NCBI GenBank assembly: GCA_022706765.1
Contig: JAKJBX010000003.1
Coordinates: 10,291-74,290, forward strand
Source: Bacillota bacterium
Lineage (GTDB): Bacteria; Bacillota; Clostridia; Monoglobales; Firm-18
DNA: 64,000 bases
Reading direction: 5' to 3'
In this document: in pieces, positions 50,740 through 64,000 of the stretch
Layout of the letters: the number at the start of each line of letters is the position of its first letter
Position numbering within the stretch: position 1 is the stretch's first letter
Notes under the pieces: generated by a model
The model's database searches: none
Told to the model about the DNA's origin: nothing
The model's input: only the letters and a program-made list of their open reading frames with translations
Made by a program: the position numbers and the translations under genes

Positions 50740-50752
50740 AGGGGTGTCGGGG

Positions 50753-51202
50753 TTGGAGCTGCTGGACTTGGTTACTTCAAATCAAATTATCAATATCACC
50801 ATTATCTCATGGTTCATCACGCAGGTCATCAAGGTCATCCTGGTGATGCTGACAGAGCGGCGGGTCGTGCTTGAACGGTTCGTCGGCGCAGGGGGTATGC
50901 CCAGCTCACATTCGGCGACGGTTTGTACGCTGACGATTTGCATCGGGCGTGTTTTGGGCTTTTCCTCGCCGGAATTTGCCCTGGCGTTTGTCATTTCGCT
51001 CATCATCATGTACGATGCGGCGGGTGTGCGCCGCGCGGCGGGTCAGCAGGCGTCCGTCCTCAATAAAATGCTCGACGACTGGCATACGGCAAATCAGGAG
51101 TTTACGCAGATCGAGCTCAAAGAGCTTTTGGGACATACACCGCTGCAAGTCGCCGTCGGTGCGTTTATCGGCATCCTAATTGGCAGCTTTGTGGCGATAT
51201 AA
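50753..51202 (+). CDS. divergent PAP2 / DUF212 membrane protein
   Basis: GGMPSSHSATV and YDAAGVRR motifs. The ORF-track N-terminus overlaps ispA; TTG 50753 (or GTG 50744) after GAGGGG preferred. Confidence 0.75.
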   Translation: MELLDLVTSNQIINITIISWFITQVIKVILVMLTERRVVLERFVGAGGMPSSHSATVCTLTICIGRVLGFSSPEFALAFVISLIIMYDAAGVRRAAGQQASVLNKMLDDWHTANQEFTQIELKELLGHTPLQVAVGAFIGILIGSFVAI

Positions 51203-51315
51203 AGAGGAAGAAGAAGGCGTTCCGGCAGAAAGGTCGGCTTTGGCGACGGCGACCGTGCTGGTCAGCTGTGTACCGAGGAGAAATCAGGCCGTCTTTGAAA
51301 CAGAATTTAGTCATC

Positions 51316-51342
51316 AAAAAAGCGCCGTTTCGGCGCTTTTTT
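51316..51342. terminator. bidirectional rho-independent terminator
   Basis: AAAAAA-GCGCCG-TTT-CGGCGC-TTTTTT between convergent genes. Confidence 0.8.
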
Positions 51343-51447
51343 ATCTTATTGGGAGATTTGAGAAATTTCCTATGAGATAAAAACAATTAATTCATTCTTT
51401 GGCAAAGGCTTTTGGCTGTGTACCTAAAAAGCGTCGAAAGCGTTTTG
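51343..51447 (+). repeat. Repeat R1 copy E
   Basis: Eroded GGAGATTT..AAATTTCC hairpin, then AAAAACAATTAATTCATTCTTTGGCAAAGGCTTTTGGCTGTGTACCT, then AAAAAGCGTCGAAAGCGTTTT (pairs only with G.U wobbles on the + strand). Confidence 0.65.
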
Positions 51448-51470
51448 TTACATGGTATCCAACGGGCAAT

Positions 51471-52475
51471 TTAAAGATTCAGGTTCTTTTTTTGCCAGCG
51501 CCATGCGTCCTCGCACATCTGCTTCAAATCACGCTCGGCAGCCCAGCCCAGCTCTTTTTGCGCTTTGCCCGGGTCCGCATAGCACGCCGCAATGTCGCCG
51601 CTTCTCGGCGGTGCTATTTTGTACGGTATGGTATGTCCGCACGCCGCCTCCATCGCCCGAAGCACTTCAAGCACGGAGTATCCCGTGCCGGTGCCGAGGT
51701 TATAAATATGCACGCCGGTGGTATCGGCGTTTTTTTCCAATGCTTTCAAATGTCCGATCGCAAGGTCGACCACGTGGATATAATCCCTTATACCGGTGCC
51801 GTCACGGGTCGGATAGCGGTCGCCGAACACGTTTAATGCTTCCAACTGCCCTGCCGCAACCTTTGCGATATAAGGCATCAGGTTGTTCGGAATGCCTTTG
51901 GGGTTTTCGCCGATCTCTCCGCTCTCATGTGCGCCGACGGGGTTGAAGTAGCGCAGTATCGAAATGGAAACCCCGGAGTTTGCCGCGTAAAAATCCTTTA
52001 AAATCTGCTCGATCATCAGCTTTGTGGAGCCATACGGGTTTGTCGTGCCTAAGGGGAAATCTTCGGTGATCGGCAAAGACGCCGGGTCGCCGTAGACGGT
52101 TGCGGAGGAGGAAAAGACAAAGCTTTTGACATGATATTCTTCGATGAGCGACAGCAGGTTCAGCGTCCCCGTGATGTTGTTGTGATAGTATTTGAGCGGC
52201 AGTTGAACAGATTCGCCGACCGCCTTTAACCCCGCAAAGTGGATGACGGCGTCAAAGGTGTTCTCCTCGAAAATCACCCTGAGCGCATCCATATCCAGCA
52301 TATCCGCCAAATAGAATTTAAAGGGCTTTCCGGTGATCCTGACGACGGCGTCATTGACCTTTTCCTCGGAATTGGACAGGTTGTCGAAGGTGACGACGCT
52401 ATGCCCCGCATTTAAAAGCTCTGTACAGGTATGGCTGCCTATATAGCCGGTTCCGCCGGACAGAAGAATGTTCAT
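51471..52475 (-). CDS. galE: UDP-glucose 4-epimerase
   Basis: GGTGYIGSH, YGSTK catalytic motif; 334 aa. Confidence 0.9.
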   Translation of the reverse strand: MNILLSGGTGYIGSHTCTELLNAGHSVVTFDNLSNSEEKVNDAVVRITGKPFKFYLADMLDMDALRVIFEENTFDAVIHFAGLKAVGESVQLPLKYYHNNITGTLNLLSLIEEYHVKSFVFSSSATVYGDPASLPITEDFPLGTTNPYGSTKLMIEQILKDFYAANSGVSISILRYFNPVGAHESGEIGENPKGIPNNLMPYIAKVAAGQLEALNVFGDRYPTRDGTGIRDYIHVVDLAIGHLKALEKNADTTGVHIYNLGTGTGYSVLEVLRAMEAACGHTIPYKIAPPRSGDIAACYADPGKAQKELGWAAERDLKQMCEDAWRWQKKNLNL

Positions 52476-52631
52476 GGCAATACTCCGTTCCGCCGCCCTG
52501 CTCCGGCGCTGGATTGACGACCGAACAACCCTTGTCAGCAGGGGAAAAAGAGTGCGCAGGACGCAAAAGTCCGGTCAGCACTAATATCTTATACCCAAGC
52601 CGCCTGTTTGTCAAGTTCAAGCGACTGTTTT

Positions 52632-52693
52632 CAATTCATGCCTTGGCAAAGGGTTATGTCAGCGCACCTAAAAAGTGCCTGCCGACACTTTTT
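52632..52693 (+). repeat. Repeat R1 copy F (core plus 3' hairpin)
   Basis: CAATTCATGCCTTGGCAAAGGGTTATGTCAGCGCACCTAAAAAGTGCCTGCCGACACTTTTT. Confidence 0.75.
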
Positions 52694-52698
52694 GATTT

Positions 52699-52765
52699 TA
52701 GTAGAAAGTTACGAAAAATCGGCGTAATTTCCACGTTTCGGCAAAAATGCATTTCGCCTTCGCAT
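52699..52765 (+). repeat. Intergenic repeat R2 copy 3 (diverged), directly abutting R1 copy F
   Basis: TAGTAGAAAGTTACGAAAAATCGGCGTAATTTCCACGTTTCGGCAAAAATGCATTTCGCC. Followed by nested hairpin CGCCTTC-GCATCCGCT..AGCGGATGC..GAAGGCG (52755-52801). Confidence 0.65.
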
Positions 52766-52851
52766 CCGCTTGCGCGGTGAGCGGATGCGTTCGGGAAGGC
52801 GCTGCGCACCTAAACGCTTTTTTCATATTTCAAGAAAATTGCAATTTTTAC

Positions 52852-52880
52852 TTGCATTTTGTTGCAGTATTATATATAAT
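52852..52880 (+). promoter_or_regulatory. sigma-A promoter of LytTR two-component operon
   Basis: TTGCAT-17 nt-TATAAT. Confidence 0.45.
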
Positions 52881-52939
52881 TTAATATATATGTACGTTTG
52901 GTGTCTTTCGCATAACTAAACTTGTCGGGAGAAGAGACT

Positions 52940-53656
52940 ATGAAAATTGCGATATGTGATGATGACGTTTTTTATGCCAAACAATTAAAGCAGACCGTTG
53001 GGAATTGTGTCCGGTGCGGCACGATCAGCGGGATCACCCTTTACAACTGCGCCGAGGACCTTCTTGACGCCTATGAGAAGCAGGGACTGCGCTACGACAT
53101 CCTGTTCCTTGACATAAAGCTCAAAAAGCTCAGCGGGCTTGATGCCGCAAAGGTGATCAACAATCTTGACAACAATGTTCTAATCTTTTTGGTTACGGCG
53201 TATGCAGATTATGTTTTTGAAGGATATGAGGTCAGGGCATTCCGCTACATAGTCAAGCCGTTCACGCCGGAGCAAATCGGTAAGGACATGCGCATGGCGC
53301 TGAAACATCTGTATTCATTCGACCGCAAGTATACCATCCAAACGAAATCCAGCATCATGACCTTCAACGTCGACGATATTTTATTCCTTGAAAGCATCAA
53401 GCGCCAGGTCAGCATCGTATCCACAAAGGGGCGGACTTCGTTTTACTCCAAGCTGTCTACCGAGGAGGAAAAGCTGTCCCAGTACGGCTTTGTACGGGTG
53501 CATCAGGGCTATCTGGTCAACATGGCGCAGATCAAGACGATTATCGAAAACAATATTTATCTGACGGACAACACCATCATCCCCATCAGCAAGAGCCAAA
53601 AAAAGGCGCTGCTGACAAGATACACAAAATATTTGACCGAATATGAAGGTATCTGA
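52940..53656 (+). CDS. LytR/AlgR (LytTR) family response regulator
   Basis: Start moved to ATG 52940. MKIAICDDD receiver; C-terminal LytTR (FVRVHQGYLVNM). Confidence 0.9.
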   Translation: MKIAICDDDVFYAKQLKQTVGNCVRCGTISGITLYNCAEDLLDAYEKQGLRYDILFLDIKLKKLSGLDAAKVINNLDNNVLIFLVTAYADYVFEGYEVRAFRYIVKPFTPEQIGKDMRMALKHLYSFDRKYTIQTKSSIMTFNVDDILFLESIKRQVSIVSTKGRTSFYSKLSTEEEKLSQYGFVRVHQGYLVNMAQIKTIIENNIYLTDNTIIPISKSQKKALLTRYTKYLTEYEGI

Positions 53657-54436
53657 ATGAAGAACACAGTAAAAAGTTATGTTTTTTCAGCCCTTTTGTC
53701 TGCTTTGACCGGGCTGATATTGTTTTATTGCACGGCTGATGTATGGCTTTCCCTTATCGTCAGCCTTGTATTTTTATGCAGCCTTTTTATGCTGGCATGG
53801 CGCACCGGCGACCTGCGGAAGAAAATGCGGGAAATGGAAAAGCTGATAGACATGCAAAACGCCCAATATACTGCGTTGGAAGTGTTTCGGGATATATTCA
53901 GATCGGCGTGGCACGACTTCAAAAACCACACCACCTGTATCCTCGGCTTCATGGAAAGCGGCGATACGGACTCGGCAAAAAAATATGTCTCCAGCATTGC
54001 GGACAGCGTCGGTGCGGTGCCGCAGTGCATGACGGGGAATTTAGCGTTTGACTGTATTCTTTCGGCGAAAATACGCAAGGCGCAGGAAATGGGGATTGGT
54101 TTTTCATACCGCTTGAATTTGCCGTCGCACATTGGTATAACGCCTGTCGACCTGACGGTCATCCTGTCCAATGTCCTTGACAACGCCATCGAAGCGTGCG
54201 AACGTCTCGGCAGCGCCGATAAGATCATCACCCTTGATGTCGGGCAAAAAAGCGATATGCTGTTTTTAAGGGTTGCAAACACCGCCGATTTGTCAGCCGG
54301 CGCAAGAAAACAAGGAGTCTTTCACGGGATGGGGCTTAAAAATGTGGAGGCGGCGCTTGCGAAATATCACGGTCATATGGAGGCTGAAACAAGCGTCGGG
54401 GAATATGTTCTCCGTATTTTGATAAAATATAAATAA
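53657..54436 (+). CDS. GHKL sensor histidine kinase, AgrC/HPK10-like, only two TM helices
   Basis: H-box FRSAWHDFKNHTT; N-box LSNVLDNAIEA; G-box GMGLKNV; partner of the LytTR regulator. Confidence 0.75.
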   Translation: MKNTVKSYVFSALLSALTGLILFYCTADVWLSLIVSLVFLCSLFMLAWRTGDLRKKMREMEKLIDMQNAQYTALEVFRDIFRSAWHDFKNHTTCILGFMESGDTDSAKKYVSSIADSVGAVPQCMTGNLAFDCILSAKIRKAQEMGIGFSYRLNLPSHIGITPVDLTVILSNVLDNAIEACERLGSADKIITLDVGQKSDMLFLRVANTADLSAGARKQGVFHGMGLKNVEAALAKYHGHMEAETSVGEYVLRILIKYK

Positions 54437-54587
54437 TTGTGACATTTCAAAGTCCAAATATTACATTCTGCTGTCTTTTTATATGGTGTTATAATATAAT
54501 TTATAACAGGAATAGAATGGGCAAATAATATATACAGTGGCAGAATTTCAAATTTTTATTTATGGTTGTCTTCGGGGTGAACAGAGT

Positions 54588-56432
54588 ATGCAGACATTGA
54601 TTACCACAACCGTTTTTGGACTGAAAAAGGGCGATGTTGACGCTTATATTGCAAAGCTCACCCATTCCTTCAAGGATAAGCTGAGTGAGCTGATCAAAGA
54701 AAAGAAGCTGCTTGAGCGTGCCAAGCAGAAGCTTTTGGTTGAGCTCAATTCCATAGAACCGGGCGCTGTCGTCTATGAAGATGTCGAGGAGCCTGTAAGC
54801 GCTGAAAATACCGGAAAAGCGGTTGATGCCGAAGACGCCCAAAAAACCATCGTTTTGATCAACGAGCTTGCGGAGCAAAAAATCGAGCAGATGATTGACA
54901 AGGCAAAGACCCAGGTTGCCGAATATGACGTGGTTTTGGAAAACCTCAACGAGGAAATGGAAGAAAACAAACGCCAGATCGAGCAGTTGTTGTCTGACGT
55001 GATCACGCTTTTGCAGACCAACATCAGCGAGGTGTTCGACGGACAGCCCCAAAAGTCTTCGGGCGTTGCCGGCAATCCTGACCGTGAAAAGGTCATTGAT
55101 TTGTTCGACAAAAAGAGCCAGTCCGAAAGCAAAGCGGTATCTGCCGTGCCGAAGGACATCGAAGACAAGATGATGAATACGCTGAGGTCATATAACGACA
55201 TCAAGTCCAGCCTGCTCATGCGCATCGACAACATCATCGCCGACAACCCCTATGCCAAGGGTGCGGTTTTGCTGGTTGAGATCAGCAACCTGCTTTTGGC
55301 GAGCTATTTCAGTAAATCGCACGCGGAGGACGAACTCATCGACCTCGTCGTCAAGGGCATAAGCGAGTTGAGCTATAAATTACAGCCGGTCAGGCTTTCG
55401 TATGACCAAATCGCCATTTTGCTCGAAGACGTCAATGAAGCGGCGTCCGTTTCGCTGCTTGCGGACGGGATATTGCGGCAGATCGAGGGCATCGGCAGCA
55501 AGAGCAAGGCGTCGGCAGACATCTCCGCCAACATCGGTATTGCGCTGTATCCGCAAAATGCGACCGACAGCGAAACGATTATGAATTGCGCCGCTATTGC
55601 GCTGTTTAAGTCCAAGGAAAACGGTAAGGGCAACTACGAATTTATCAACGACGACCTGATTCGTGAAATCAAGCTTTCGGGTGAATTCAAGCAGGATTTG
55701 TATGACGCCGTCGAAAAGGATGAGCTGGCGCTGTTCTATCAGCCGCAGTTTTCCGCCGAGGGCAATACGCTGTTCGGCTTTGAAGCGTTGCTGCGGTGGC
55801 AAAATGAAAAATACTTCAAGGTGCCGATCCTTCAAGTCATCCAGGCTGCCGAGAAGGATGACTTGATTTCCAAAATCGGTACGATGGTGTTCAGAAAGGC
55901 GTGTATCTTTGCTAAAAAAATCAATACCGACAGGCAGCGTGACTTGATCGTTTCCGTCAATTTTTCAAATGTCCAGATTTCAAAGAGCGACTTTGTCGAA
56001 ACCGTTCAGAGTGTGCTGCTTGAAACCGGCGTTGATCCGAAACACATCGGCTTTGAGATTACCGAATCCTGCTTTATGGAGTGTTTCGGTGACAATTGCA
56101 GCAAAATCCAGCGCATCAAGGACTTGGGCGTCACCATATTGATCGACGATTTCGGCACGGGCTATTCAACGCTGTCCTATCTGATCAACCTGCCCGTGTC
56201 CATTGTCAAAATCGACAAGACGTTTTTAGACAGCATGGCGACCAACGAACGCAATGCGAACTTTGTCAGTTCGATCATTGATATATCCCATGATTTGGGC
56301 TTGAAGGTTATCGCAGAGGGCATCGAAACGGAGCGTCAGCGGGAAATGTTATCGGCAATGGGGTGCGATGTCTTGCAGGGCTATTTGCTGTCTAAACCGG
56401 CGCCCGAGGATGATGCGTGCAAATTTTTATAA
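54588..56432 (+). CDS. c-di-GMP phosphodiesterase: DivIVA-like N-terminal coiled-coil module + degenerate GGDEF + EAL
   Basis: Start moved to ATG 54588. GGDEF position reads RLSYDQIAILL. EAL residues intact (FEALLRW, NFS, EITES, DDFGTGYS, KIDKTF, EGIET, QGYLLSKP). Confidence 0.85.
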   Translation: MQTLITTTVFGLKKGDVDAYIAKLTHSFKDKLSELIKEKKLLERAKQKLLVELNSIEPGAVVYEDVEEPVSAENTGKAVDAEDAQKTIVLINELAEQKIEQMIDKAKTQVAEYDVVLENLNEEMEENKRQIEQLLSDVITLLQTNISEVFDGQPQKSSGVAGNPDREKVIDLFDKKSQSESKAVSAVPKDIEDKMMNTLRSYNDIKSSLLMRIDNIIADNPYAKGAVLLVEISNLLLASYFSKSHAEDELIDLVVKGISELSYKLQPVRLSYDQIAILLEDVNEAASVSLLADGILRQIEGIGSKSKASADISANIGIALYPQNATDSETIMNCAAIALFKSKENGKGNYEFINDDLIREIKLSGEFKQDLYDAVEKDELALFYQPQFSAEGNTLFGFEALLRWQNEKYFKVPILQVIQAAEKDDLISKIGTMVFRKACIFAKKINTDRQRDLIVSVNFSNVQISKSDFVETVQSVLLETGVDPKHIGFEITESCFMECFGDNCSKIQRIKDLGVTILIDDFGTGYSTLSYLINLPVSIVKIDKTFLDSMATNERNANFVSSIIDISHDLGLKVIAEGIETERQREMLSAMGCDVLQGYLLSKPAPEDDACKFL

Positions 56433-56445
56433 GGGTATGATATTT

Positions 56446-57747
56446 ATGAGGTTTTTCTATTCAATGCGTTATATTAAGACGGCCGTTTTGATGCTGCTGC
56501 TGACAGCGCTTGTGCTTGTGGGTCCGGCGTATGCGGCAAGCAGCTACTACGAACAGGCGAGGGTTCTTTACAATCTCAACCTTTACAAAGGAACGAGTGC
56601 GACCTATTTTGAGCCGGATTTGGAGTCTTATGTTGACCGGGAAACCGCAATCGTTTTGGTTTTGCGTCTATTCGGCAAGACCTCCGACGTCGAAAATTAT
56701 TATGATTACCGTGTACAAAGCATCCTCAGCGCATACAGCGACGGCGGCGACGTCTCGTCGTGGGCAAGGAAATATGTCGCTTATGCGATCAACAACCAGC
56801 TGTTTCCGGGTGAGCTCCAAGGGTCTGTTTTGCCGAAGCGTTATATCGACGGCAAGACGTTTATCGGTCTTATGCTGAACTGCATGGGCTATAAGCTCTA
56901 CGGCGACCAGTGGACGATAGCCGCCTATATCAATTCCTACCTCGGCGGGGTTTCTGCGGACGATGCGCGGTATGTCAACGACAAGATCATTTCCAAAAAC
57001 GATATGGTCGCCATCATATGGGAGTCGCTCGATATGCCGACGAAGGATTACGCGACGCTGCTTAACATGATCGTGGATTACAACAGCATCAGCTCTTCGA
57101 AGCTGACGCAATTGGGCTTTATTCGGGTGAACGGCAAGCTGATCCCTCCGGCGTTCTACTCCACCGGACTGGCGACCGCCACCGATTACTCGGTCGGATA
57201 CACGATGTCAGACGGCTCTAAATATGCGGGCGGCACCTCCGGCGGCGTGCCGGACGGGTTTGGTGTCGTCACCTATGAGGACGGCAGCGTCTATGAGGGA
57301 TATGTTTCCGCGGGCAAGCGGCACGGCGAAGGCAAATTATTAAGAAGCGACGGCTTTGTTTATGTCGGCGGCTGGCAAAATGACATGATGAATGGCAAGG
57401 GCGCCATGACCTGGGCAAACGGCGACAGATACTCCGGTGATGTGGTCAACGGCTCTTTCCAGGGCACCGGCACCATGACCTGGGCAAGCGGTAACGAGTA
57501 CACAGGTCAGTGGTGGGCAGGGAATTTCCACGGCAAGGGGAAATTCAAATGGAACAACGGCGACTATTACGACGGCGAATGGAATATGGGCGTTTTTAAC
57601 GGCTACGGCACGATGATGCGCTCAAACGGCGAGATGTACGAGGGCTATTGGGAAAATGGCAAAAGACACGGCTACGGTAAATGCATACTCGCTGACAAGA
57701 CTGTTTTGATCGGCAGATGGGAAAATGACGAGTACGTTGGGTCGTAA
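56446..57747 (+). CDS. secreted MORN-repeat protein with SLH-like N-terminal region
   Basis: Signal peptide MRFFYSMRYIKTAVLMLLLTALVLVGPAYA; about 8 MORN repeats (YEGYVSAGKRHGEGK, YVGGWQNDMMNGKG ...). Confidence 0.75.
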   Translation: MRFFYSMRYIKTAVLMLLLTALVLVGPAYAASSYYEQARVLYNLNLYKGTSATYFEPDLESYVDRETAIVLVLRLFGKTSDVENYYDYRVQSILSAYSDGGDVSSWARKYVAYAINNQLFPGELQGSVLPKRYIDGKTFIGLMLNCMGYKLYGDQWTIAAYINSYLGGVSADDARYVNDKIISKNDMVAIIWESLDMPTKDYATLLNMIVDYNSISSSKLTQLGFIRVNGKLIPPAFYSTGLATATDYSVGYTMSDGSKYAGGTSGGVPDGFGVVTYEDGSVYEGYVSAGKRHGEGKLLRSDGFVYVGGWQNDMMNGKGAMTWANGDRYSGDVVNGSFQGTGTMTWASGNEYTGQWWAGNFHGKGKFKWNNGDYYDGEWNMGVFNGYGTMMRSNGEMYEGYWENGKRHGYGKCILADKTVLIGRWENDEYVGS

Positions 57748-57760
57748 ATGAAGAAATCTA

Positions 57761-58477
57761 ATGACAAAGGATTTGACACAGCGTATGAAAAAGCTGATAA
57801 TTATCCCGGTTTTTAACGAAGAGGCAAACATCAGCATTGTGCTGAGTGAGCTGAAAAGTAAATGTCCGGATACGGATATTCTGATCATCGACGACGGCTC
57901 CACCGATGCGTCGTATAAGGTGTGTGTGGATACCCGGGCGTGCGAGATCATCAGGCTGCCCATGAACCTCGGCATCGGCGGCGCACGGCAGACAGGATTT
58001 AAGTATGCGCTGAACATGGAATATGATGTCGTCATTCAAATGGACGGCGACGGACAGCATGATCCGGCTGACATCAATGCGATGGTTGCGGAAATCGAAA
58101 ACGGCACGGACCTGTGCATCGGTTCCCGTTTTATCAAATACGAGGGCTTTCAGTCCTCATTTACCAGAAGACTCGGTATTTCCGTCATTTATAATTTGAT
58201 CAAAATGATCACAGGCAAGCGCATCACTGACCCGACATCGGGATACAGGGCTTGCAGCAGGGCGGCGATCGCATTGTTTGCCCGGGAGTATCCGCATGAT
58301 TATCCCGAGCCGGAGTCGATCATCACCGCCGCAAAAAACAAATTGGTCATCAAGGAAATCCCCGTGACCATGAATGCAAGGATCAACGGCAAGTCAACCA
58401 TCGGCGGTTCTGATTCGGTTTACTTTATGATAAAAATCACCTTGGCGATTTTAATCGACGCTATGTCGAAAAAATGA
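57761..58477 (+). CDS. family 2 glycosyltransferase (polyprenol-phosphate sugar transferase, GtrB/DPM1-like)
   Basis: IIIPVFNEEANI, IIDDGSTD, QMDGDGQHDP motifs. ATG 57785 is an alternative start. Confidence 0.85.
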   Translation: MTKDLTQRMKKLIIIPVFNEEANISIVLSELKSKCPDTDILIIDDGSTDASYKVCVDTRACEIIRLPMNLGIGGARQTGFKYALNMEYDVVIQMDGDGQHDPADINAMVAEIENGTDLCIGSRFIKYEGFQSSFTRRLGISVIYNLIKMITGKRITDPTSGYRACSRAAIALFAREYPHDYPEPESIITAAKNKLVIKEIPVTMNARINGKSTIGGSDSVYFMIKITLAILIDAMSKK

Positions 58478-58505
58478 CCGCATTGCCATTTAGGGAGGGT
58501 TGTTT

Positions 58506-58865
58506 ATGCTTGATTACCGGCTGCAAATCGTGTTGCTTTCCGCGACATTATCGTTTTTGATTTATATCATCGACATGGTCAGGAATAAGCGCTTGGAGCT
58601 GCACTATATCATCATTTGGCTGTTTTCGGCGATCGCTTTGATCGTGATCACCATCCTGCCCGGTGCGCTTCATTTGATTTCACAGCTTTTGCATATTCAG
58701 GAGCCTGTAAACACCCTGTTTATGTCGCTGATTTTCTTTTTGATTATGATCATTTTTTCGCTGACCAAGATTTTATCTAAGAACTTTGTTCGTGTCAGTA
58801 CGCTGGCACAGGAGCTCGGCATCGTCAAGCTTGAGATCGAGCAGCTTAAAAGACAGATGAAATAA
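58506..58865 (+). CDS. DUF2304 small membrane protein (usual GT2 partner)
   Basis: ATG 58506 is 6 nt after GGGAGGG. Three TM helices; VRNKRLELHYIIIWL motif; coiled C-terminus. Confidence 0.65.
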   Translation: MLDYRLQIVLLSATLSFLIYIIDMVRNKRLELHYIIIWLFSAIALIVITILPGALHLISQLLHIQEPVNTLFMSLIFFLIMIIFSLTKILSKNFVRVSTLAQELGIVKLEIEQLKRQMK

Positions 58866-58896
58866 CCCGGCACTTTTGTTATGGGAGGCAGACCGT

Positions 58897-60618
58897 TTGG
58901 ATAAGAAAATTAAGGTAATGCTGTCAACGGAGGGGACGTATCCTTTTCATCAGGGCGGTGTCAGCACATGGTGCGACATCCTTGTCAATCAGCTTGAAAA
59001 TGTTGATTACACCGTGTACAGCCTGATGATGAATCCGTTTATATCGCAAATATTCGATTTGCCAAGCTCGGCAGAGCTTGTTAAAGTGCCGCTTTGGGGA
59101 ACGGAAGAACCGAGCGAATACCTTGATGTGCCGTTTTCAAAGGTCTACATATCCAAGCGCCGCACCACGGATTCGGTGATCCGTGAAAAATTCATCCCGC
59201 TTTTTCGCCAAATGATCAGTGAAATGCTGAGCCTTGAAAAAAAGCCGAGAAAGCTCGGCGAAGTGCTGCATAGCATGTACCTGTATTTTCAGGAATATGA
59301 ATATAAGAAGAGCTTCAAGTCCGGCATCGTGTGGGACGAATACAAATCTATCGTATACAGCTTTGCGGCGGTACCGGACAATGACATTGATATGCCCAGC
59401 GTCTACGACCTCATCCAAAGCCTCGGCTGGCTGTACCGCTTTATGGTGACGCTCAATACGCCCATCCCGAAAGCGGACGTCACCCATTCGGCGGCGGCAG
59501 CGTTTTGCGGCATCCCGTGCGTGCTCGCCAAAATCGAGAACAACACGCCCTATATGCTGACGGAACACGGCGTCTATATCAGGGAACAGTATCTGTCGCT
59601 GTCAAAGCGCGGTTACCCGTCCTACCTGAACACCTTTTTCATCAGGATGGTCAACTCTGTCATCAGTCTCAACTACGAGTACGCCGATGTGGTCGCGCCC
59701 GTCTGCCGGTATAACGTCAGGTGGGAGTCGCATTTCGGCGTGGAGGACGATAAGATCAACGTCATCTACAACGGCGTTGACACCGACCGCTTTGCGCCGA
59801 TGGAAAGCAAAAGAAAATACCGGCAGCCGACCGTGGTTTCGATCGCAAGGATAGACCCTTTAAAAGACATCATTTCGCTGATTGAGGCGACGGATCTTGT
59901 GCGCAGGGAGATTCCCGACATCAAGGTGTCGCTGTACGGCTCCGTTTCGGTCGAGGATTACTATGAGGAATGTCAAAAACGTGTCAGGGACCTTGGGCTG
60001 GAAGACCACTTCATCTTTGAGGGGCACACCAACAACGCCCCCGAGGCGTATAATTCCGGCGATATTGTCGCACTGTCAAGCATTTCCGAAGCCTTTCCCT
60101 ATTCCGTCGTCGAAGCGATGATGAGCGGGAAGCCGGTTGTGTCGACGGACGTCGGCGGTATTGCGGAGGCGCTTGGCGACTGCGGCGTTTTGGTGACGCC
60201 CCGTGCACCGGAGGAGCTTGCGCAGGGGATCATCACCTTCTTGAAAAACCCCGAAATGATCAAAGAAAAGGGCGAAAAGGCAAGAAAACGCGCCGTCGAA
60301 TATTTTTCTATTGAAAAAGTGCTGGAAAACCATTATAATTCATATATGAGGCTTGTGACCTCCGAACGTGAAATCAAAAAGGTGCTTCCGATTTCACTGC
60401 TGCAAAAGCAAAAGTTTTACGCCGAAAAGGGATATACGCTGCTTAATATGGGCTATGTCCGCGAGGCGATCGAGCAGTTCAGAGAGGCGGTTAACGCCTC
60501 GCCTGCCTCGCCGTCCGCACCCATACTGGTACTGGAAATCGCCAATTCCTACCGCAAGCTCGGCGAACACGACAAGGCGGAGCTTGAAATCTTGAAAAGC
60601 AGCGCTTTGACAGGCTGA
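58897..60618 (+). CDS. PelF-like family 4 glycosyltransferase (DUF3492 + Glycos_transf_1) with C-terminal TPR-like extension
   Basis: MLSTEGTYPFHQGGVSTWCDILVNQL compares with PelF LLLEGTWPYVRGGVSSWINQLI (recalled). GT4 EAFPYSVVEAMMSGKPVV; last about 80 aa TPR-like. TTG 58897 is 8 nt after GGGAGG. Confidence 0.75.
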   Translation: MDKKIKVMLSTEGTYPFHQGGVSTWCDILVNQLENVDYTVYSLMMNPFISQIFDLPSSAELVKVPLWGTEEPSEYLDVPFSKVYISKRRTTDSVIREKFIPLFRQMISEMLSLEKKPRKLGEVLHSMYLYFQEYEYKKSFKSGIVWDEYKSIVYSFAAVPDNDIDMPSVYDLIQSLGWLYRFMVTLNTPIPKADVTHSAAAAFCGIPCVLAKIENNTPYMLTEHGVYIREQYLSLSKRGYPSYLNTFFIRMVNSVISLNYEYADVVAPVCRYNVRWESHFGVEDDKINVIYNGVDTDRFAPMESKRKYRQPTVVSIARIDPLKDIISLIEATDLVRREIPDIKVSLYGSVSVEDYYEECQKRVRDLGLEDHFIFEGHTNNAPEAYNSGDIVALSSISEAFPYSVVEAMMSGKPVVSTDVGGIAEALGDCGVLVTPRAPEELAQGIITFLKNPEMIKEKGEKARKRAVEYFSIEKVLENHYNSYMRLVTSEREIKKVLPISLLQKQKFYAEKGYTLLNMGYVREAIEQFREAVNASPASPSAPILVLEIANSYRKLGEHDKAELEILKSSALTG

Positions 60619-60718
60619 TGATTTAAACCGACATGAGCGGATGGCTTTACAAAATTCCGACGGCAGGGGCTGTGTGTGTTCGACTCCCCTATGCCTACAT
60701 GAGAGAGGTGACACGTGA

Positions 60719-61150
60719 ATGCCTATTACAGACCGAATTACGCTTTTTGGTTACAGTGCTTTGGAGGTCGAGCAATACGTCCGGACCTTAGAGCAGGAGT
60801 ATGACACAAAGAAGAAGGAGCTCGAAGACACCATTGCCGCGCTTCAACAGGAGATCGAGGAGCTGAAAGAGCAGATCGAATTTCAGCGTGCCAACAAAAA
60901 GGTCGTCGTGAAAAAGCGTACCGTCAAGGCGCCTTCGTCCGACAGCAAGGAGGATAAAGCGATCATGCAGTCGCTTTATGATGCGCACATCAAGGCGACG
61001 GAAAAGGTGGCAAAGGTGCAGAAGAACATTTCCATGACGCTTGAAAAGCGCAAATCGCTGATTTTGCTTAGGGAAAAGAAGGCGAGTGAAATGAAAGCGG
61101 ATCTGCAAAACCTGATTGACTATATCGATTCTTTGGCTAAGGACTATTAG
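60719..61150 (+). CDS. DivIVA-like coiled-coil protein
   Basis: N-terminal LFGYSALEVEQYVRTL resembles the DivIVA FRGYDEDEVNEFL motif; remainder is heptad-rich. Confidence 0.55.
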   Translation: MPITDRITLFGYSALEVEQYVRTLEQEYDTKKKELEDTIAALQQEIEELKEQIEFQRANKKVVVKKRTVKAPSSDSKEDKAIMQSLYDAHIKATEKVAKVQKNISMTLEKRKSLILLREKKASEMKADLQNLIDYIDSLAKDY

Positions 61151-61165
61151 AAAGAGGCTATGCGT

Positions 61166-62233
61166 ATGAATAGAATCAATATCCCGACACGGCTGTTTGG
61201 TCTGAACAAACAAGACGTCTCCGAGCATATCGACAATCTTTCCAAAGACAGTCAGAAAAGCCTTGACGAGCTTGGCAGAGAGCTTGCCCGTTTGCAGAAA
61301 GAAAAAAGCAAACTGGAAACCGAGCTTTCGCAGGTCCAAAAGGAAGAGATTAAGTATGAGGATGAGATAGTCGAGTCGCCGGCGCAGCCGTCGGACAACA
61401 AGACGCTTGACGAAGCATACAAGCGCCTGGAAAAAACCGTTGCGCTTATCAATATGGTTGCGGATGAGGAATCGTCGCAGCTTGTTTCCAGTGCCAATAA
61501 AAAGATCGAAGAATACGACCGGATGATTCAGGGCTTGCAGGACGACATCGACGAGAAGAAAAAGCGCATCGAAGCGCTTTTGTCCAATGTTTTAGGCATC
61601 TTGAAGGCAAATGTCGACAACGTCACCTCTAAGATCAAAGATAAGGAAAAGCTTGGCAAGACCTTGGCTGATCCGGAGTCCCTGCGTGAAAAATTATCGC
61701 AATACATAGACGAAGACGTTGCGAAGGATGATGAGCTGCCGGTCACGAAAAAAGCCGCCATTACCGCCGACGGCACGTCGCTTTCGGGACTGCCCAAGCT
61801 TTTGATGTTCCAGAACAAGTATGGCATCAAACCCCGTGAAGGCAAAAAGACGGCGGAAGAGGAGCAGCTTTTGCCGGCTGATGAGCTGGAAGATTTCACT
61901 CGCAACCACGACGTGGATTTGGGAAGCGACCCCGCCGCGGGTCTTGATAAATGGTACGACGACATCCCCGACGAGTTTGGCGAGGTCTTGCAGCAAGCCG
62001 AGCAGCAGGCTGCCGTGCAGTCCGCTCCCGCCGCGTCCGAAGAGGAAGGACACGACATCAAAAAGATGCGTGACACGCTGATTATCGGCAAGGTCGCGGG
62101 CGAAAATATATTTGACGGTGAGAATAATATTATCATACCCAAAGGAAAGGTGCTTACCGAGGAGGATGTCGCTGTCGCCGAGAGAGAATCGAAGCTCGCG
62201 GAACTCATCATCAACATGTCGCTTCCGAAGTAA
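61166..62233 (+). CDS. DivIVA-like coiled-coil protein with acidic linker and small C-terminal module
   Basis: LFGLNKQDVSEHIDNL. Residues about 85-150 are paralogous to the N-terminal module of the EAL protein. ATG 61166 is 8 nt after AAAGAGG (ORF track 61160). Confidence 0.55.
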   Translation: MNRINIPTRLFGLNKQDVSEHIDNLSKDSQKSLDELGRELARLQKEKSKLETELSQVQKEEIKYEDEIVESPAQPSDNKTLDEAYKRLEKTVALINMVADEESSQLVSSANKKIEEYDRMIQGLQDDIDEKKKRIEALLSNVLGILKANVDNVTSKIKDKEKLGKTLADPESLREKLSQYIDEDVAKDDELPVTKKAAITADGTSLSGLPKLLMFQNKYGIKPREGKKTAEEEQLLPADELEDFTRNHDVDLGSDPAAGLDKWYDDIPDEFGEVLQQAEQQAAVQSAPAASEEEGHDIKKMRDTLIIGKVAGENIFDGENNIIIPKGKVLTEEDVAVAERESKLAELIINMSLPK

Positions 62234-62245
62234 GAGGTTATTGAT

Positions 62246-63853
62246 ATGACAGACAAACCGAATTACGAAATCATAGCAGAAGAGAGCATATTCAACAGCC
62301 TGATCAGCGACATTACGGAACGGCAGCCGTATCCCGAGAACTATTACGAAGTGGCGGCTGTTTTGGAGTCCATCGGCTGGAACGATGCGCGGGCGAACGC
62401 AACGTTTGGTATGGCGGATATTTTTGAGCTTGCTTCCGAGGTGTATAACGTCATCACCGAGGACGTCAGTTTTTCGACCTTTGAAGAAAAAAAGCAGCAC
62501 ACGCTGCCCCACAAAATTAACATCATTTTCAAGAGCTTTATTCGCGGCATGGTGTTTGCACTGCCGATGGCGATTTCAGTTTTTGCGATGCTGACGCTGC
62601 GGTTTTCGCTTTGGTCATATGAATTTTCATCGGTCGAGGTGGCGACCTGCATTGCTATCGGTACGATTTTTAGTTTTTTGACCGTCGGCGGATTTATGCA
62701 GGCGATCGCCCGACGTGGCTTTTTGTACCTACGCCAGGGCTATTACAACCTTGCGCGCAAAATCACGGTGTATTTTATCCGTTTAGGCTATGTGCTGACC
62801 GCCGTGATCCTTTTGTCGTTTCTGCTGTTTAATTTGGTGTTTGAGGCGTTCCCCATTGATATGGTCATGATCATCGTGCTGTACTACCTCTTTTTGTGCG
62901 CGATTTGGTTTTCCGTCACGGTCATGTATATATTGGAGCGTGAATTCACCTTCACGGCGCTGATCGTTGCAGGTATCGGCATCGTGTACCTTTTGTTCAA
63001 GGTGTTCGGGTTTGAAATCATCATTTCACAGATCATCGCACTGCTGATCGTGTCGGTAGCGGGCCTGCTGTTGATTTTTTACTTCTTTCACAAGGAAGAG
63101 AAGAAGATGGATAAAGGCATCGAGCCGTCGCTGCCGAAAAAGTCCATCACGCTATACACCACCTTTCCGTATTTTGCCTACGGGTTTTTATATTTTGCCT
63201 TTTTGTTTATGGACAGGATCATCGGCTGGTCGACCAACCAGTCGTATATGCCATACATCATTTGGTTCAGGGGCGCATACGAGCTTGGCTTGGACTTTGC
63301 GCTGCTGATGCTGATCGTTCCGATGGGCGCCTGCGAGGTCGTTGTCAGCAAGCTGATGGACGAGCTTGACGAGGGTCAGAAAAACGCTTTCGGTACGGAC
63401 TCCGTTGTTATCGGCAAGCAGTTTCAAAGGATTTATTTTAAAAGACTTTTGCTGGTTGCGGGCGTTGCGGTGCTGAGCGCACTGGTGACCTATTCCGTCG
63501 TGTGGTACTTTGAGATGCACCCACCGACCGACAACTTTCGCACAGGCTTTTTGAGCAACTATGTCACGCATTTCGTGCTGATCATCGGGCTTGTAAGCTA
63601 TGCGATCATCAGCTGCGCACTGATGAACTGCGTCACGCTGTTTTCGCTGTCACAACCCGAGATGGCGGGCAGGACGGTCCTGATCTCGCTGATCGTCAAT
63701 ATCGTGGTCGGCTTTTTGCTCAGCCGTTGGATCGACTATTACTATGCCGTTTTCGGACTGCTTGTCGGTTCGATCGTCTTTTTGATACTCAGCTCACGAA
63801 AAATTTTGCAGCTTTTCAAAAAACTGGACTATTACCTGTACTTCCAGGCATAA
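62246..63853 (+). CDS. 12-TM polytopic membrane protein with about 95-aa cytoplasmic N-terminal extension; possibly PelG-like/MOP-type exporter
   Basis: 12 hydrophobic segments counted by eye; position after a PelF-like gene. No sequence motif recognised, so the PelG call is contextual only. Confidence 0.45.
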   Translation: MTDKPNYEIIAEESIFNSLISDITERQPYPENYYEVAAVLESIGWNDARANATFGMADIFELASEVYNVITEDVSFSTFEEKKQHTLPHKINIIFKSFIRGMVFALPMAISVFAMLTLRFSLWSYEFSSVEVATCIAIGTIFSFLTVGGFMQAIARRGFLYLRQGYYNLARKITVYFIRLGYVLTAVILLSFLLFNLVFEAFPIDMVMIIVLYYLFLCAIWFSVTVMYILEREFTFTALIVAGIGIVYLLFKVFGFEIIISQIIALLIVSVAGLLLIFYFFHKEEKKMDKGIEPSLPKKSITLYTTFPYFAYGFLYFAFLFMDRIIGWSTNQSYMPYIIWFRGAYELGLDFALLMLIVPMGACEVVVSKLMDELDEGQKNAFGTDSVVIGKQFQRIYFKRLLLVAGVAVLSALVTYSVVWYFEMHPPTDNFRTGFLSNYVTHFVLIIGLVSYAIISCALMNCVTLFSLSQPEMAGRTVLISLIVNIVVGFLLSRWIDYYYAVFGLLVGSIVFLILSSRKILQLFKKLDYYLYFQA

Positions 63854-63874
63854 TGACGGGATGGAGGACGACTG

Positions 63875-64000
63875 ATGGGTGAGCTTTTGGCGGATAGCGC
63901 CGTATATTTGGTCAAGTGCCTGACGGCGTTTTTGGTTTTGTTCCTGCTGATTCCCCGTGTGATTTTCACCGAGGACGGCGAGGACGTGACCAAAGGCATT
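63875..64000 (+). CDS. 5' end of a further membrane protein gene (runs off window)
   Basis: GGAGG 7 nt before ATG 63875; MGELLADSAVYLVKCLTAFLVLFLLIPRVIF... hydrophobic N-terminus. Confidence 0.45.
   Translation, partial: MGELLADSAVYLVKCLTAFLVLFLLIPRVIFTEDGEDVTKGI

What the first reader, a model, noticed from the sequence alone, without database searches (positions are those of the whole stretch)
54588..62233. Three paralogous DivIVA-like modules in one operon: one fused to the phosphodiesterase, two stand-alone between the PelF-like and 12-TM genes
The N-termini align: MQTLITTTVFGLKKGDVDAYIAKL (54588), MPITDRITLFGYSALEVEQYVRTL (60719) and MNRINIPTRLFGLNKQDVSEHIDNL (61166). A second block is also shared. 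The phosphodiesterase has AQKTIVLINELAEQKIEQMIDKAKTQVAEYDVVLENLNEEMEENKRQIEQLLSDVITLLQTNISEV. The 61166 protein has LEKTVALINMVADEESSQLVSSANKKIEEYDRMIQGLQDDIDEKKKRIEALLSNVLGILKANVDNV. Shared coiled-coil modules within one operon suggest hetero-oligomerisation. That could tether a c-di-GMP hydrolase to a scaffold next to the polysaccharide synthase/exporter. I do not know of this architecture being described for Pel or other EPS systems.
Basis: partly seen in the sequence, partly recalled or inferred. Interest (0 to 1): 0.7.

Follow-up and report, generated by a model that had tools for sequence, protein, structure and literature searches.

The report
DivIVA-like subunits in Pel-type polysaccharide locus
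Three related DivIVA-type coiled-coil modules sit in one polysaccharide operon: two are conserved stand-alone subunits found between PelF and PelG across many Firmicutes, and the third is a clade-specific copy fused to a c-di-GMP-degrading enzyme, probably to place it at the same machine.

Summary
The N-terminal ~150 aa of the EAL phosphodiesterase (54588-55037) and of the 355-aa protein (61166-61624) are clear paralogues: 34% identity, BLASTP E=2e-22, shuffle z=24, profile-profile E=5e-41. The 143-aa protein is only marginally similar inside the window. At family level it is homologous over the whole module (hhalign 98%, E=6e-14).

All three belong to the DivIVA/GpsB superfamily. The window proteins score below Pfam's threshold, but their relatives hit DivIVA and GpsB models and structures.

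The small and large proteins are core genes of a PelF – small – large – PelG-like cluster. It turned up in 49 genomes, nearly all labelled Firmicutes, and it lacks PelD, PelE and the PelA deacetylase. The large protein also ends in a conserved ~60-aa domain whose fold resembles the RNA polymerase BBM2 module.

The phosphodiesterase fusion is confined to one narrow clostridial clade and arose by a single duplication of the large protein's module. Its EAL site is intact and its GGDEF is degenerate.

Tethering a local c-di-GMP sink to the synthase scaffold is plausible but untested. I found no description of this architecture in the held paper library.

The parts
54588..56432 (+). 614-aa c-di-GMP phosphodiesterase: DivIVA-like module, then degenerate GGDEF, then EAL. 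An alternative GTG start lies at 54537.
   Evidence: Pfam EAL 215 bits and GGDEF 34 bits over a partial profile; DivIVA 18.4 bits, below threshold. An RBS-like GGGGTG lies upstream of the ATG at 54588.
54588..55037 (+). DivIVA-like module of the phosphodiesterase (residues 1-150): N-terminal VFGLKKGDVDAYI motif and two coiled-coil segments.
   Evidence: BLASTP E=2e-22 against the 355-aa protein; hhalign E=4.8e-41; shuffle z=23.7. In the NJ tree it is sister to the large-protein modules of the same clade.
55389..55631 (+). Degenerate GGDEF domain (residues 268-348). The GG[DE]EF site reads SYDQI and there is no RxxD I-site.
   Evidence: Pfam GGDEF matches profile positions 77-160 only. The motif alignment of six orthologues shows [SA]YDQ[ILV].
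55692..56399 (+). EAL domain (residues 369-604) with its catalytic motifs intact.
   Evidence: E[ASG]LLR, N, ExTE, DDFGTGYS, KIDK, EG[IV]E and QG are conserved in all six orthologues.
56443..57747 (+). MORN-repeat protein with one N-terminal TM or signal segment and a weak SLH match. The start codon is uncertain.
   Evidence: Pfam MORN E=1.8e-32 in 6 stretches; SLH E=0.029. TM scan. Conserved in syntenic loci.
57761..58477 (+). GT2 glycosyltransferase. Its best NCBIfam matches, all far below the curated cut-offs, are polyprenyl-phosphate sugar synthases (AglJ, PpgS).
   Evidence: Pfam Glycos_transf_2 E=2.4e-24. NCBIfam AglJ and PpgS matches at 84 and 79 bits against cut-offs of 325 and 370.
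58500..58865 (+). DUF2304 small membrane protein, paired with the GT2.
   Evidence: Pfam DUF2304 E=3.8e-21. The GT2-DUF2304 pair recurs in many related loci.
58876..60618 (+). PelF (GT4 with DUF3492) carrying a C-terminal TPR extension.
   Evidence: NCBIfam PelF NF038011 152 bits against a cut-off of 100. Pfam DUF3492, Glycos_transf_1 and TPR_8 at residues 514-544.
60719..61150 (+). Small (143-aa) stand-alone DivIVA-like protein.
   Evidence: Family A8 hits GpsB 9pv2 at E=3.5e-5 and DivIVA 2wuj at E=4.9e-4. 14 of 35 members hit Pfam DivIVA. hhalign to the large family gives 98.2%, E=6e-14. It lies immediately upstream of the large gene in at least 40 of 49 loci.
61166..62233 (+). Large (355-aa) protein: DivIVA-like module (61166-61624), variable acidic linker, conserved C-terminal domain. 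An alternative ATG lies at 61160.
   Evidence: Family A3 and A6. The AF2 model has helices 15-59 and 78-163 with block-mean pLDDT mostly above 85.
62051..62230 (+). C-terminal ~60-aa domain (consensus R.KY.GK.AGEDL.D..G..II.K...IT......AE.EGKL.ELI.NM) with a BBM2-like fold.
   Evidence: Present in 87 of 146 module-profile hits. AF2 pLDDT 85.5. All top-50 Foldseek PDB hits are RNA polymerase beta or beta' (probability mostly 0.7-0.98; rmsd 1.0-1.6 Å over 36-41 residues for the best local matches; E=0.13-0.5), and they include the E. coli beta lobe.
62246..63853 (+). 535-aa polytopic membrane protein, a divergent PelG with a conserved ~95-aa cytoplasmic N-terminal extension.
   Evidence: It has no Pfam or NCBIfam hit itself, but 8 of 15 family members hit Pfam PelG (best E=6.9e-8). 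At least 10 TM segments, the first near residue 98. Many invariant residues in positions 19-62.
52922..54436 (+). LytTR response regulator (52922-53656) and GHKL histidine kinase (53657-54436), directly upstream and co-oriented.
   Evidence: Pfam Response_reg plus LytTR, and HATPase_c_5. The response regulator is conserved upstream in all syntenic loci of the narrow clade.
51471..52475 (-). UDP-glucose 4-epimerase GalE, divergently transcribed from the cluster.
   Evidence: TIGR01179 452 bits against a cut-off of 262. Divergent galE genes flank Gram-positive pel operons according to PMC7112168.

Best explanation
SHOWN
- The three modules are homologous, full-length DivIVA/GpsB-type units. Each has an N-terminal hydrophobic-G-[LY]-x3-[DE]-V-x2-[YH]-[IV] loop/helix motif followed by two coiled-coil segments.
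- The small (143-aa) protein and the large (355-aa) protein are core, syntenic genes of a PelF – small – large – PelG-like cluster. The large protein is module + linker + BBM2-like C-terminal domain.
- The cluster has no PelD, PelE or PelA deacetylase.
- It usually continues with one or two ~650-700-aa polytopic membrane proteins, a GT2/DUF2304 pair, a mostly degenerate HD-GYP protein and a GH114 (PelA-hydrolase-like) enzyme.
- In the narrow clostridial clade that holds this window, the module of the large protein was duplicated once. The copy was fused to a degenerate-GGDEF / catalytically intact EAL phosphodiesterase. It has since co-diverged with its parent.

INFERRED
- The small and large proteins form a membrane-proximal coiled-coil adaptor. 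It couples cytosolic PelF to the PelG-like exporter, as GpsB and DivIVA dock the cytoplasmic parts of membrane enzymes.
- In this role they fill the place that PelD and PelE hold in canonical Pel systems.
- The copied module brings the phosphodiesterase to the same site. It could do this by heteromeric coiled-coil assembly or by binding the same partner or membrane patch.
- c-di-GMP would then be hydrolysed locally at the synthase, under control of the adjacent LytTR two-component system.
For: Homology:
- Pairwise and profile comparisons.
- Link to DivIVA/GpsB.

Synteny:
- Identical gene order in the 5 distinct syntenic loci with full contexts examined.
- Of 49 loci from a scan of species-representative genomes, PelF lies upstream in 40 and the PelG-like gene lies immediately downstream in 44. 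Most misses are contig ends.
- The small gene is detected in 37 loci by HMM, plus 3 divergent copies, plus 3 fusions.

Link between the small and large proteins:
- They are fused into one ORF in L021, L040 and L049, from three different lineages.

Origin of the PDE fusion:
- It is rare. Only one EAL-containing representative appears among 138 module hits in 1.84 billion proteins, and only 4 of 49 loci carry it.
- PDE modules form a clade sister to the large-protein modules of the same genomes, with congruent branching.

Enzymology:
- EAL catalytic motifs are conserved and the GGDEF is degenerate.

Precedents:
- GpsB N-domains with bound PBP peptides are among the PDB hits (6gp7, 6gpz).
- Streptomyces DivIVA is reported to interact with the cellulose-synthase-like CslA (bioRxiv 10.1101/2024.08.02.606377, citing Xu 2008).
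- The pairing of PA0290 with PelD is an example of local c-di-GMP signalling at Pel (PMC13609476, abstract seen).
Against: - There is no direct evidence for any protein-protein contact.
- At 34% identity the PDE module may have become homo-specific rather than hetero-oligomerising.
- The window's own proteins fall below the curated DivIVA thresholds.
- The window's 143-aa protein shows no significant similarity to the PDE module on its own.
- Four loci (L016, L025, L058, L059) carry the large gene without PelF or PelG nearby, three of them with the small gene too. The pair is therefore not strictly dedicated to Pel.
- No c-di-GMP receptor has been identified in the cluster. The link between c-di-GMP level and synthase activity is assumed by analogy with Pel.
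- The polymer made is unknown.
Confidence: 0.55

Rival explanations
1. The phosphodiesterase's N-terminal module is only a homodimerisation or membrane-association device, since EAL enzymes work as dimers. It was recruited from a handy neighbouring gene and the PDE does not join the small/large scaffold.
For: The module is mostly long helices (AF2 model of the paralogue). It has diverged to 34% identity from its parent. Its N-terminal loop varies more (VFGL, AIGL, LLGL, IIGL) than that of the large protein (invariant FGL).
Against: The full module has been kept across all six orthologues, including positions also invariant in the large family: the FGL.K..V motif, LI, Q, Y and V. The fusion is found only inside this cluster.
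Confidence: 0.25
2. The DivIVA-like proteins are positional markers. Like DivIVA, they would sense curvature at a pole or septum and so fix where the polysaccharide machine and its phosphodiesterase sit. They would not be structural stand-ins for PelD and PelE.
For: They belong to the DivIVA/GpsB superfamily and have hydrophobic or aromatic residues at the loop equivalent to DivIVA F17/R18 (alignments). Streptomyces DivIVA is reported to recruit CslA to hyphal tips.
Against: They are strictly encoded between PelF and PelG and are sometimes fused to each other, which looks more like dedicated subunits. Nothing here addresses localisation. This reading is compatible with the best explanation and does not exclude it.
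Confidence: 0.3
3. The large protein is the regulatory receptor of the system. Its conserved C-terminal BBM2-like domain would bind c-di-GMP or another ligand or partner, and the DivIVA-like part would only oligomerise it.
For: The C-terminal domain is the most conserved part of the family. The cluster lacks PelD. Genes for c-di-GMP enzymes are linked to it.
Against: The domain matches no family in Pfam, which includes the known c-di-GMP-binding domains; only chance-level hits appeared. BBM2 modules in RNA polymerase are not known as nucleotide sensors. The degenerate HD-GYP protein is at least as good a receptor candidate.
Confidence: 0.12
4. The similarity is coiled-coil composition bias and the three genes are unrelated.
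For: In the window alone, the PDE and the 143-aa protein are not significantly similar over their full length (z=1.7, 70 of 1000 shuffles reach the score).
Against: The PDE versus large-protein comparison gives z=19.6 even with local composition preserved. hhalign gives E=4.8e-41 and 6e-14. All three share the same non-coiled-coil N-terminal motif.
Confidence: 0.02

Closest known systems
DivIVA / GpsB family (Pfam PF05103, TIGR03544; structures 2wuj, 4ug3, 6gp7, 8e2c)
   Same: The N-terminal motif (hydrophobic-x-G-[YL]-x3-[DE]-V-x2-[FYL]) is followed by a coiled coil. The matches to the Pfam DivIVA model span nearly all of it, at sub-threshold score. Size is about 150 aa. The family role as cytosolic adaptors for membrane-bound envelope enzymes fits.
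   Different: These proteins are encoded inside a polysaccharide locus, not with cell-division genes. They score below the curated thresholds. The large form carries an extra BBM2-like C-terminal domain and the PDE form carries GGDEF-EAL. Neither architecture turned up in my literature searches.
Gram-positive Pel system pelDEA(DA)FG (Bacillus cereus; Whitfield 2020, PMC7112168)
   Same: PelF passes the NCBIfam cut-off. There is a PelG relative, a divergent galE next door, a GH114 PelA-hydrolase-like gene in the syntenic extension, and linkage to c-di-GMP enzymes.
   Different: PelD, PelE and the PelA deacetylase are not detectable. Two DivIVA-like genes lie between pelF and pelG. PelF carries its own TPR tail and PelG has a ~95-aa N-terminal extension. 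Extra polytopic membrane proteins and a GT2/DUF2304 pair are present. [quoted passage not shown]
Local c-di-GMP signalling modules tethered to exopolysaccharide synthases (for example PA0290 with PelD, PMC13609476; E. coli PdeK/DgcC at cellulose synthase, from my own knowledge)
   Same: A c-di-GMP-turnover enzyme is encoded or positioned with the polysaccharide machine it is thought to control.
   Different: Here the proposed tether is a duplicated copy of a scaffold subunit's own oligomerisation module. The interaction is untested.
Streptomyces DivIVA-CslA interaction
   Same: A DivIVA-type coiled-coil protein partners with a polysaccharide synthase.
   Different: There the housekeeping polarity protein DivIVA is used. 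Here dedicated, operon-encoded paralogues occur with a different (Pel-type) synthase.
BBM2 (beta-beta' module 2) of bacterial RNA polymerase (Iyer 2004, cited in PMC2939025)
   Same: The C-terminal domain model superposes on small modules of the beta and beta' subunits (rmsd 1.0-1.6 Å over 36-41 residues).
   Different: The context is entirely different. Foldseek E-values are only 0.1-0.5 because the domain is tiny. Homology is not established.

Membership tests
DivIVA/GpsB superfamily | N-terminal domain motif (hydrophobic-x-G-Y/L-x3-D/E-V-x2-F/Y/L-hydrophobic) at the extreme N-terminus | tested here: met
   VFGLKKGDVDAYI, LFGYSALEVEQYV and LFGLNKQDVSEHI. These align in register with GpsB and DivIVA crystal constructs.
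DivIVA/GpsB superfamily | Score above the curated family threshold (Pfam PF05103 gathering score 28 bits) | tested here: not met
   The PDE scores 18.4 bits and the 355-aa protein 18.0 bits. The 143-aa protein has no DivIVA hit. Relatives do pass at E-values down to 7e-29 and 4e-11, so membership is at superfamily level by transitivity.
DivIVA/GpsB superfamily | Long helix or coiled coil directly after the N-terminal loop | tested here: met
   The AF2 model of the 355-aa protein has a short helix at 9-11, a loop, then helices 15-59 and 78-163 with block-mean pLDDT mostly above 85. The other two proteins were not modelled.
DivIVA/GpsB superfamily | Oligomerisation (dimer or tetramer) and binding to membrane or to cytoplasmic tails of partner enzymes | not testable with these tools
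   Needs biochemistry or multimer modelling.
Pel exopolysaccharide system | PelF GT4 glycosyltransferase | tested here: met
   NF038011 152.4 bits against a cut-off of 100; Pfam DUF3492 plus Glycos_transf_1.
Pel exopolysaccharide system | PelG polytopic exporter | tested here: inconclusive
   The window protein has no Pfam or NCBIfam hit. 8 of 15 close family members hit PF16933 with a best E of 6.9e-8.
Pel exopolysaccharide system | PelD c-di-GMP receptor (TM-GAF-degenerate GGDEF) and PelE (TM-TPR) | tested here: not met
   Pfam lists no GAF or GGDEF domain outside the phosphodiesterase, in the window or in syntenic loci. The only TPR is fused to PelF.
Pel exopolysaccharide system | PelA deacetylase | tested here: not met
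   No deacetylase domain appears in the window or in syntenic loci. Only a GH114 hydrolase-like gene lies downstream.
EAL c-di-GMP phosphodiesterase | EAL domain with its catalytic and metal-binding residues | tested here: met
   Pfam EAL E=1.1e-63. EALLR, N, ExTE, DDFGTGYS, KIDK, EGIE and QG are conserved in six orthologues.
Diguanylate cyclase (GGDEF) | GG[DE]EF active site | tested here: not met
   The site reads SYDQI in the window and [SA]YDQ[ILV] in orthologues. The Pfam match is partial.
BBM2 module | Fold match to the RNA polymerase beta/beta' module | tested here: inconclusive
   All top-50 Foldseek hits are RNA polymerase beta or beta' with high probability, but E-values are 0.13-0.5. 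There is no sequence-level match.

The most novel reading that the evidence does not exclude
A Firmicutes-wide, undescribed Pel-type synthase uses a dedicated pair of DivIVA-like proteins, in place of PelD and PelE, as a cytoskeleton-like scaffold that assembles and positions PelF and PelG. The membrane-anchored degenerate 'SN-GYP' protein serves as its c-di-GMP receptor. In one clade the scaffold's own oligomerisation module was copied onto an EAL phosphodiesterase, so that the enzyme co-assembles with the scaffold and forms a spatially confined c-di-GMP sink.
Probability: 0.25. Interest if true: 0.8.

Novelty: new variant of a known kind. Interest (0 to 1): 0.62.

Why it matters
Canonical Pel needs PelD and PelE to bring the cytosolic glycosyltransferase PelF to PelG and to sense c-di-GMP. 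An earlier survey noted Gram-positive loci in which only pelF and pelG were identified, and left open how such loci work.

This analysis shows that such loci in many Firmicutes carry two conserved DivIVA-type proteins exactly between pelF and pelG. They include Paenibacillus, several Bacillales genera, Peptococcaceae and various Clostridia. That gives concrete candidates for the missing scaffold.

The clade-specific fusion of the scaffold module to an EAL phosphodiesterase is a clean natural test case for local c-di-GMP signalling. The proposed address tag is a recognisable, swappable ~150-aa module.

It would also extend DivIVA/GpsB adaptors from cell-wall synthesis and division to exopolysaccharide secretion.

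Tried and rejected
- A word-indexed homologue search with the PDE N-terminus alone returned one truncated hit and told me little.
- Foldseek of the full-length 355-aa model against the PDB gave nothing significant, because the model is long helices plus a low-confidence tail. Only the separately modelled C-terminal domain was informative.
- Pfam on C-terminal domain sequences gave only chance-level hits such as SAF and Arg_repressor_C. The PRC-barrel hits seen in 5 of 83 relatives were not followed up.
- The family alignment of the ~650/700-aa membrane proteins found no solved relative and only weak DUF6541 and PMT_2 hits. 'GT-C-like' remains a guess.
- An Rfam scan of 50000-64000 found no riboswitch. 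I had looked for c-di-GMP riboswitches, including in the 100-nt PelF-small intergenic gap.
- An exact look-up of the window's own 355-aa protein found no record, so the window's downstream genes had to be inferred from syntenic loci.
- The composition-bias explanation was rejected by shuffles.
- I considered that the small and large proteins might be divergent PelE and PelD. I rejected this because they have no TM segments, no TPR, no GAF and no GGDEF.

Full report
**Gene layout.** From 52922 to the window end, one co-oriented gene string runs on the + strand.
- LytTR response regulator and GHKL histidine kinase.
- A 614-aa protein with an EAL domain (215 bits), a partial GGDEF and a ~200-aa helical N-terminus.
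- A MORN-repeat protein.
- A GT2 whose best, sub-threshold NCBIfam matches are polyprenyl-phosphate sugar synthases, followed by DUF2304.
- PelF (NF038011 152 bits, cut-off 100) with a C-terminal TPR.
- A 143-aa protein, then a 355-aa protein.
- A 535-aa polytopic membrane protein with no family hit.

GalE lies just upstream on the other strand.

**Is the similarity real?**
- PDE N-terminus versus the 355-aa protein: yes, beyond doubt. BLASTP gives 34% identity over 149 aa, E=2e-22, and covers both the N-terminal motif and the quoted second block.
- The Smith-Waterman score is 24 SD above shuffles. It is still 20 SD above them when composition is kept in 20-aa windows.
- Profiles built from six PDE orthologues and sixteen large-protein orthologues align over 184 columns with E=4.8e-41.
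- The 143-aa protein is much weaker in the window. BLASTP gives E=0.011 and 0.24. Against the PDE, z=1.7 for the full length. The first 30 residues stand out (z about 5).
- With 35 members of the small family taken from related loci, hhalign to the large family gives 98.2% probability, E=6e-14 over 140 columns. That is the whole module.

All three are therefore homologous. The small-large split is old and the PDE-large split is recent.

**Are they DivIVA-like?**
- The window proteins score 18 bits against Pfam DivIVA (threshold 28), although the two matches cover most of the model, profile positions 11-128 of 131 between them.
- A profile of the shared module, searched against 1.84 billion representative proteins, found 138 hits.
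- Of the 83 hits scanned, 26 hit Pfam DivIVA (best 7e-29), 19 hit NCBIfam GpsB (best 2e-13) and 7 hit the TIGR03544 DivIVA domain.
- 14 of 35 small-family members hit Pfam DivIVA (best 4e-11).
- The small-family profile hits GpsB and DivIVA N-domain crystal constructs in register (E=3.5e-5 and 4.9e-4).
- The AF2 model of the 355-aa protein has the expected layout: a short helix, a loop, then long helices.

I file them as divergent members of the DivIVA/GpsB superfamily, not of the curated Pfam family.

- 87 of the 146 proteins recovered share the architecture of the 355-aa protein: module, variable linker, then a highly conserved C-terminal ~60-aa domain.
- The domain's consensus is R.KY.GK.AGEDL.D..G..II.K...IT......AE.EGKL.ELI.NM.
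- Modelled alone with 55 sequences, it folds with pLDDT 85.5.
- All top-50 Foldseek PDB hits are RNA polymerase beta or beta' subunits. Probabilities are mostly 0.7-0.98, and the best local matches superpose at rmsd 1.0-1.6 Å over 36-41 residues. They include the E. coli beta lobe fragment that contains the BBM2 repeats.
- E-values are only 0.13-0.5 because the domain is small, so I call it BBM2-like and no more.

**Genomic context.**
- The full-length loci around five large-protein homologues (P0004, P0007, P0015, P0013, P0009), taken from assemblies and metagenomes, show the same order. It runs response regulator, (kinase), DivIVA-GGDEF*-EAL, MORN, (GT2 or EamA), DUF2304, PelF, small, large, PelG-like.
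- Beyond the window's end the order continues with two ~650-700-aa polytopic proteins, an HD-GYP-type protein and GH114.
- A scan of species-representative genomes with the family alignment returned 49 loci. By record title they include Oscillospiraceae and Eubacteriales MAGs, Clostridium, Desulfosporosinus, Peptococcaceae, Pelotomaculum, Dethiobacter, Herbinix, Paenibacillus, Cohnella, Psychrobacillus, Paenisporosarcina and Ectobacillus.
- I scanned their six-frame ORFs with HMMs I built from the syntenic loci.
- PelF lies within two genes upstream in 40 loci. The PelG-like gene is the next gene downstream in 44. The small gene is immediately upstream in 37.
- Five of the nine PelF misses are contig ends.
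- Three further loci have a divergent small gene. In three others (L021, L040, L049) the small and large units are fused in one ORF, with two tandem N-terminal motifs and one C-terminal domain.
- Four loci (L016, L025, L058, L059) have no PelF or PelG within the fetched flanks.
- The PelG-like family hits Pfam PelG in 8 of 15 members. It has a conserved ~95-aa cytoplasmic N-terminal extension.

**The phosphodiesterase fusion.**
- Only 4 of the 49 loci carry the DivIVA-module/EAL gene, in addition to the window and one metagenome locus.
- Only one EAL protein appears among the module hits in the representative library.
- In a neighbour-joining tree the PDE modules form one clade. It is sister to the large-protein modules of the same genomes, and the branching is congruent. 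This indicates a single duplication at the base of this clade followed by co-divergence.
- All EAL catalytic motifs are conserved. The GGDEF site is [SA]YDQ[ILV] and has no I-site.
- The protein is therefore predicted to be an active phosphodiesterase and not a cyclase.

**Mechanism.**
- Shown: homology, superfamily assignment, core synteny with PelF and PelG, absence of PelD, PelE and the PelA deacetylase, a single-origin fusion, and an intact EAL site.
- Inferred: the small and large proteins act as a membrane-proximal adaptor linking PelF to PelG, by analogy with GpsB and DivIVA docking membrane enzymes and with the reported DivIVA-CslA interaction in Streptomyces.
- Inferred: the copied module delivers the phosphodiesterase to the same assembly, giving local c-di-GMP control.
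- The small-large fusions support an association between those two proteins, not with the PDE.
- Which component senses c-di-GMP is open.
- The cluster's HD-GYP protein is degenerate in most loci. HDIGK becomes LSNIG and a later D becomes Q, while HHE..DG.GYP is kept. That makes it a receptor candidate.

**Literature.**
- Full-text searches found no paper combining PelF, PelG and DivIVA.
- None combined DivIVA, c-di-GMP, exopolysaccharide and coiled-coil.
- The search for DivIVA together with the EAL domain returned one unrelated review.
- The Gram-positive Pel papers describe pelDEA(DA)FG. They mention loci with only pelF and pelG identified, and do not characterise the other genes.
- The library is incomplete, so earlier description elsewhere cannot be excluded.

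**Verdict.** I rate it a new variant of a known kind. It is a Pel-type locus with DivIVA-like core subunits, plus a new DivIVA-module/GGDEF*/EAL architecture. Interest 0.62.

Noticed in passing
L011:15767-17599 and the equivalent genes in about 20 other loci (beyond the window's 3' end): The cluster's HD-GYP-type protein (one TM, ~610 aa, Cys-rich tail) is degenerate in most loci. HDIGK reads LSNIG and a later metal-binding D reads Q, while HHE..DG.GYP is kept. Only L038, L046 and L055 keep the canonical HD. It may be a non-catalytic c-di-GMP sensor.
   Followed up: partly
L049:7930-9177, L021:7879-9228, L040:8027-9079: The small and large DivIVA-like genes are fused into one ORF, with two tandem N-terminal motifs and one C-terminal domain, in three different lineages. 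L040 also looks frameshifted. Assembly error is not excluded.
   Followed up: partly
window 62246-62530: The PelG-like protein has a ~95-aa cytoplasmic N-terminal extension before its first TM. It contains many invariant residues (consensus PED.YEVAA.LESMGWND...FG..DVF.LA) and is a candidate docking site for the DivIVA-like proteins.
   Followed up: partly
window 60415-60618: PelF carries a C-terminal TPR extension (Pfam TPR_8 at residues 514-544). In canonical Pel systems the TPR protein is the separate PelE.
   Followed up: no
window 57761-58865; L011:11718-15770: A GT2 whose best, sub-threshold matches are polyprenyl-phosphate sugar synthases is paired with DUF2304. With the two paralogous ~650/700-aa polytopic proteins downstream (weak DUF6541 and PMT_2 hits), this suggests extracytoplasmic glycosyl modification of the polymer through a lipid-linked donor.
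   Followed up: partly
window 51471-52475 (-): A bona fide GalE is transcribed divergently from the cluster. The same arrangement is reported next to Gram-positive pel operons.
   Followed up: yes
window 61700-61830 (residues ~197-220 of the 355-aa protein): A conserved mid-linker motif, ITADGTSL..I.KLL.FQKKY, occurs in the narrow clade. An FW motif occupies a comparable linker position in the wider family. Function unknown.
   Followed up: no
L016, L025, L058, L059: The large gene occurs without PelF or PelG in the fetched flanks, and with the small gene in L016, L025 and L059. In L025 (Candidatus Formimonas) it is followed directly by an HD-GYP-type gene. In L016 (Clostridium magnum) a short EAL-like ORF follows.
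   Followed up: no
L033:4926-5393: Ectobacillus polymachus has an extra stand-alone 155-aa ORF upstream of PelF that matches the module profile. This would be a third DivIVA-like gene, not fused to a phosphodiesterase.
   Followed up: no
window 60619-60718: A 100-nt intergenic gap separates PelF from the small gene. All other gaps from the PDE gene to the PelG-like gene are under 35 nt. No Rfam match was found.
   Followed up: partly
window 56443-57747: A conserved MORN-repeat protein with an N-terminal membrane or signal segment and a weak SLH-like match sits between the phosphodiesterase and the glycosyltransferases. A second MORN/Big_2 protein ends the cluster in L001.
   Followed up: no
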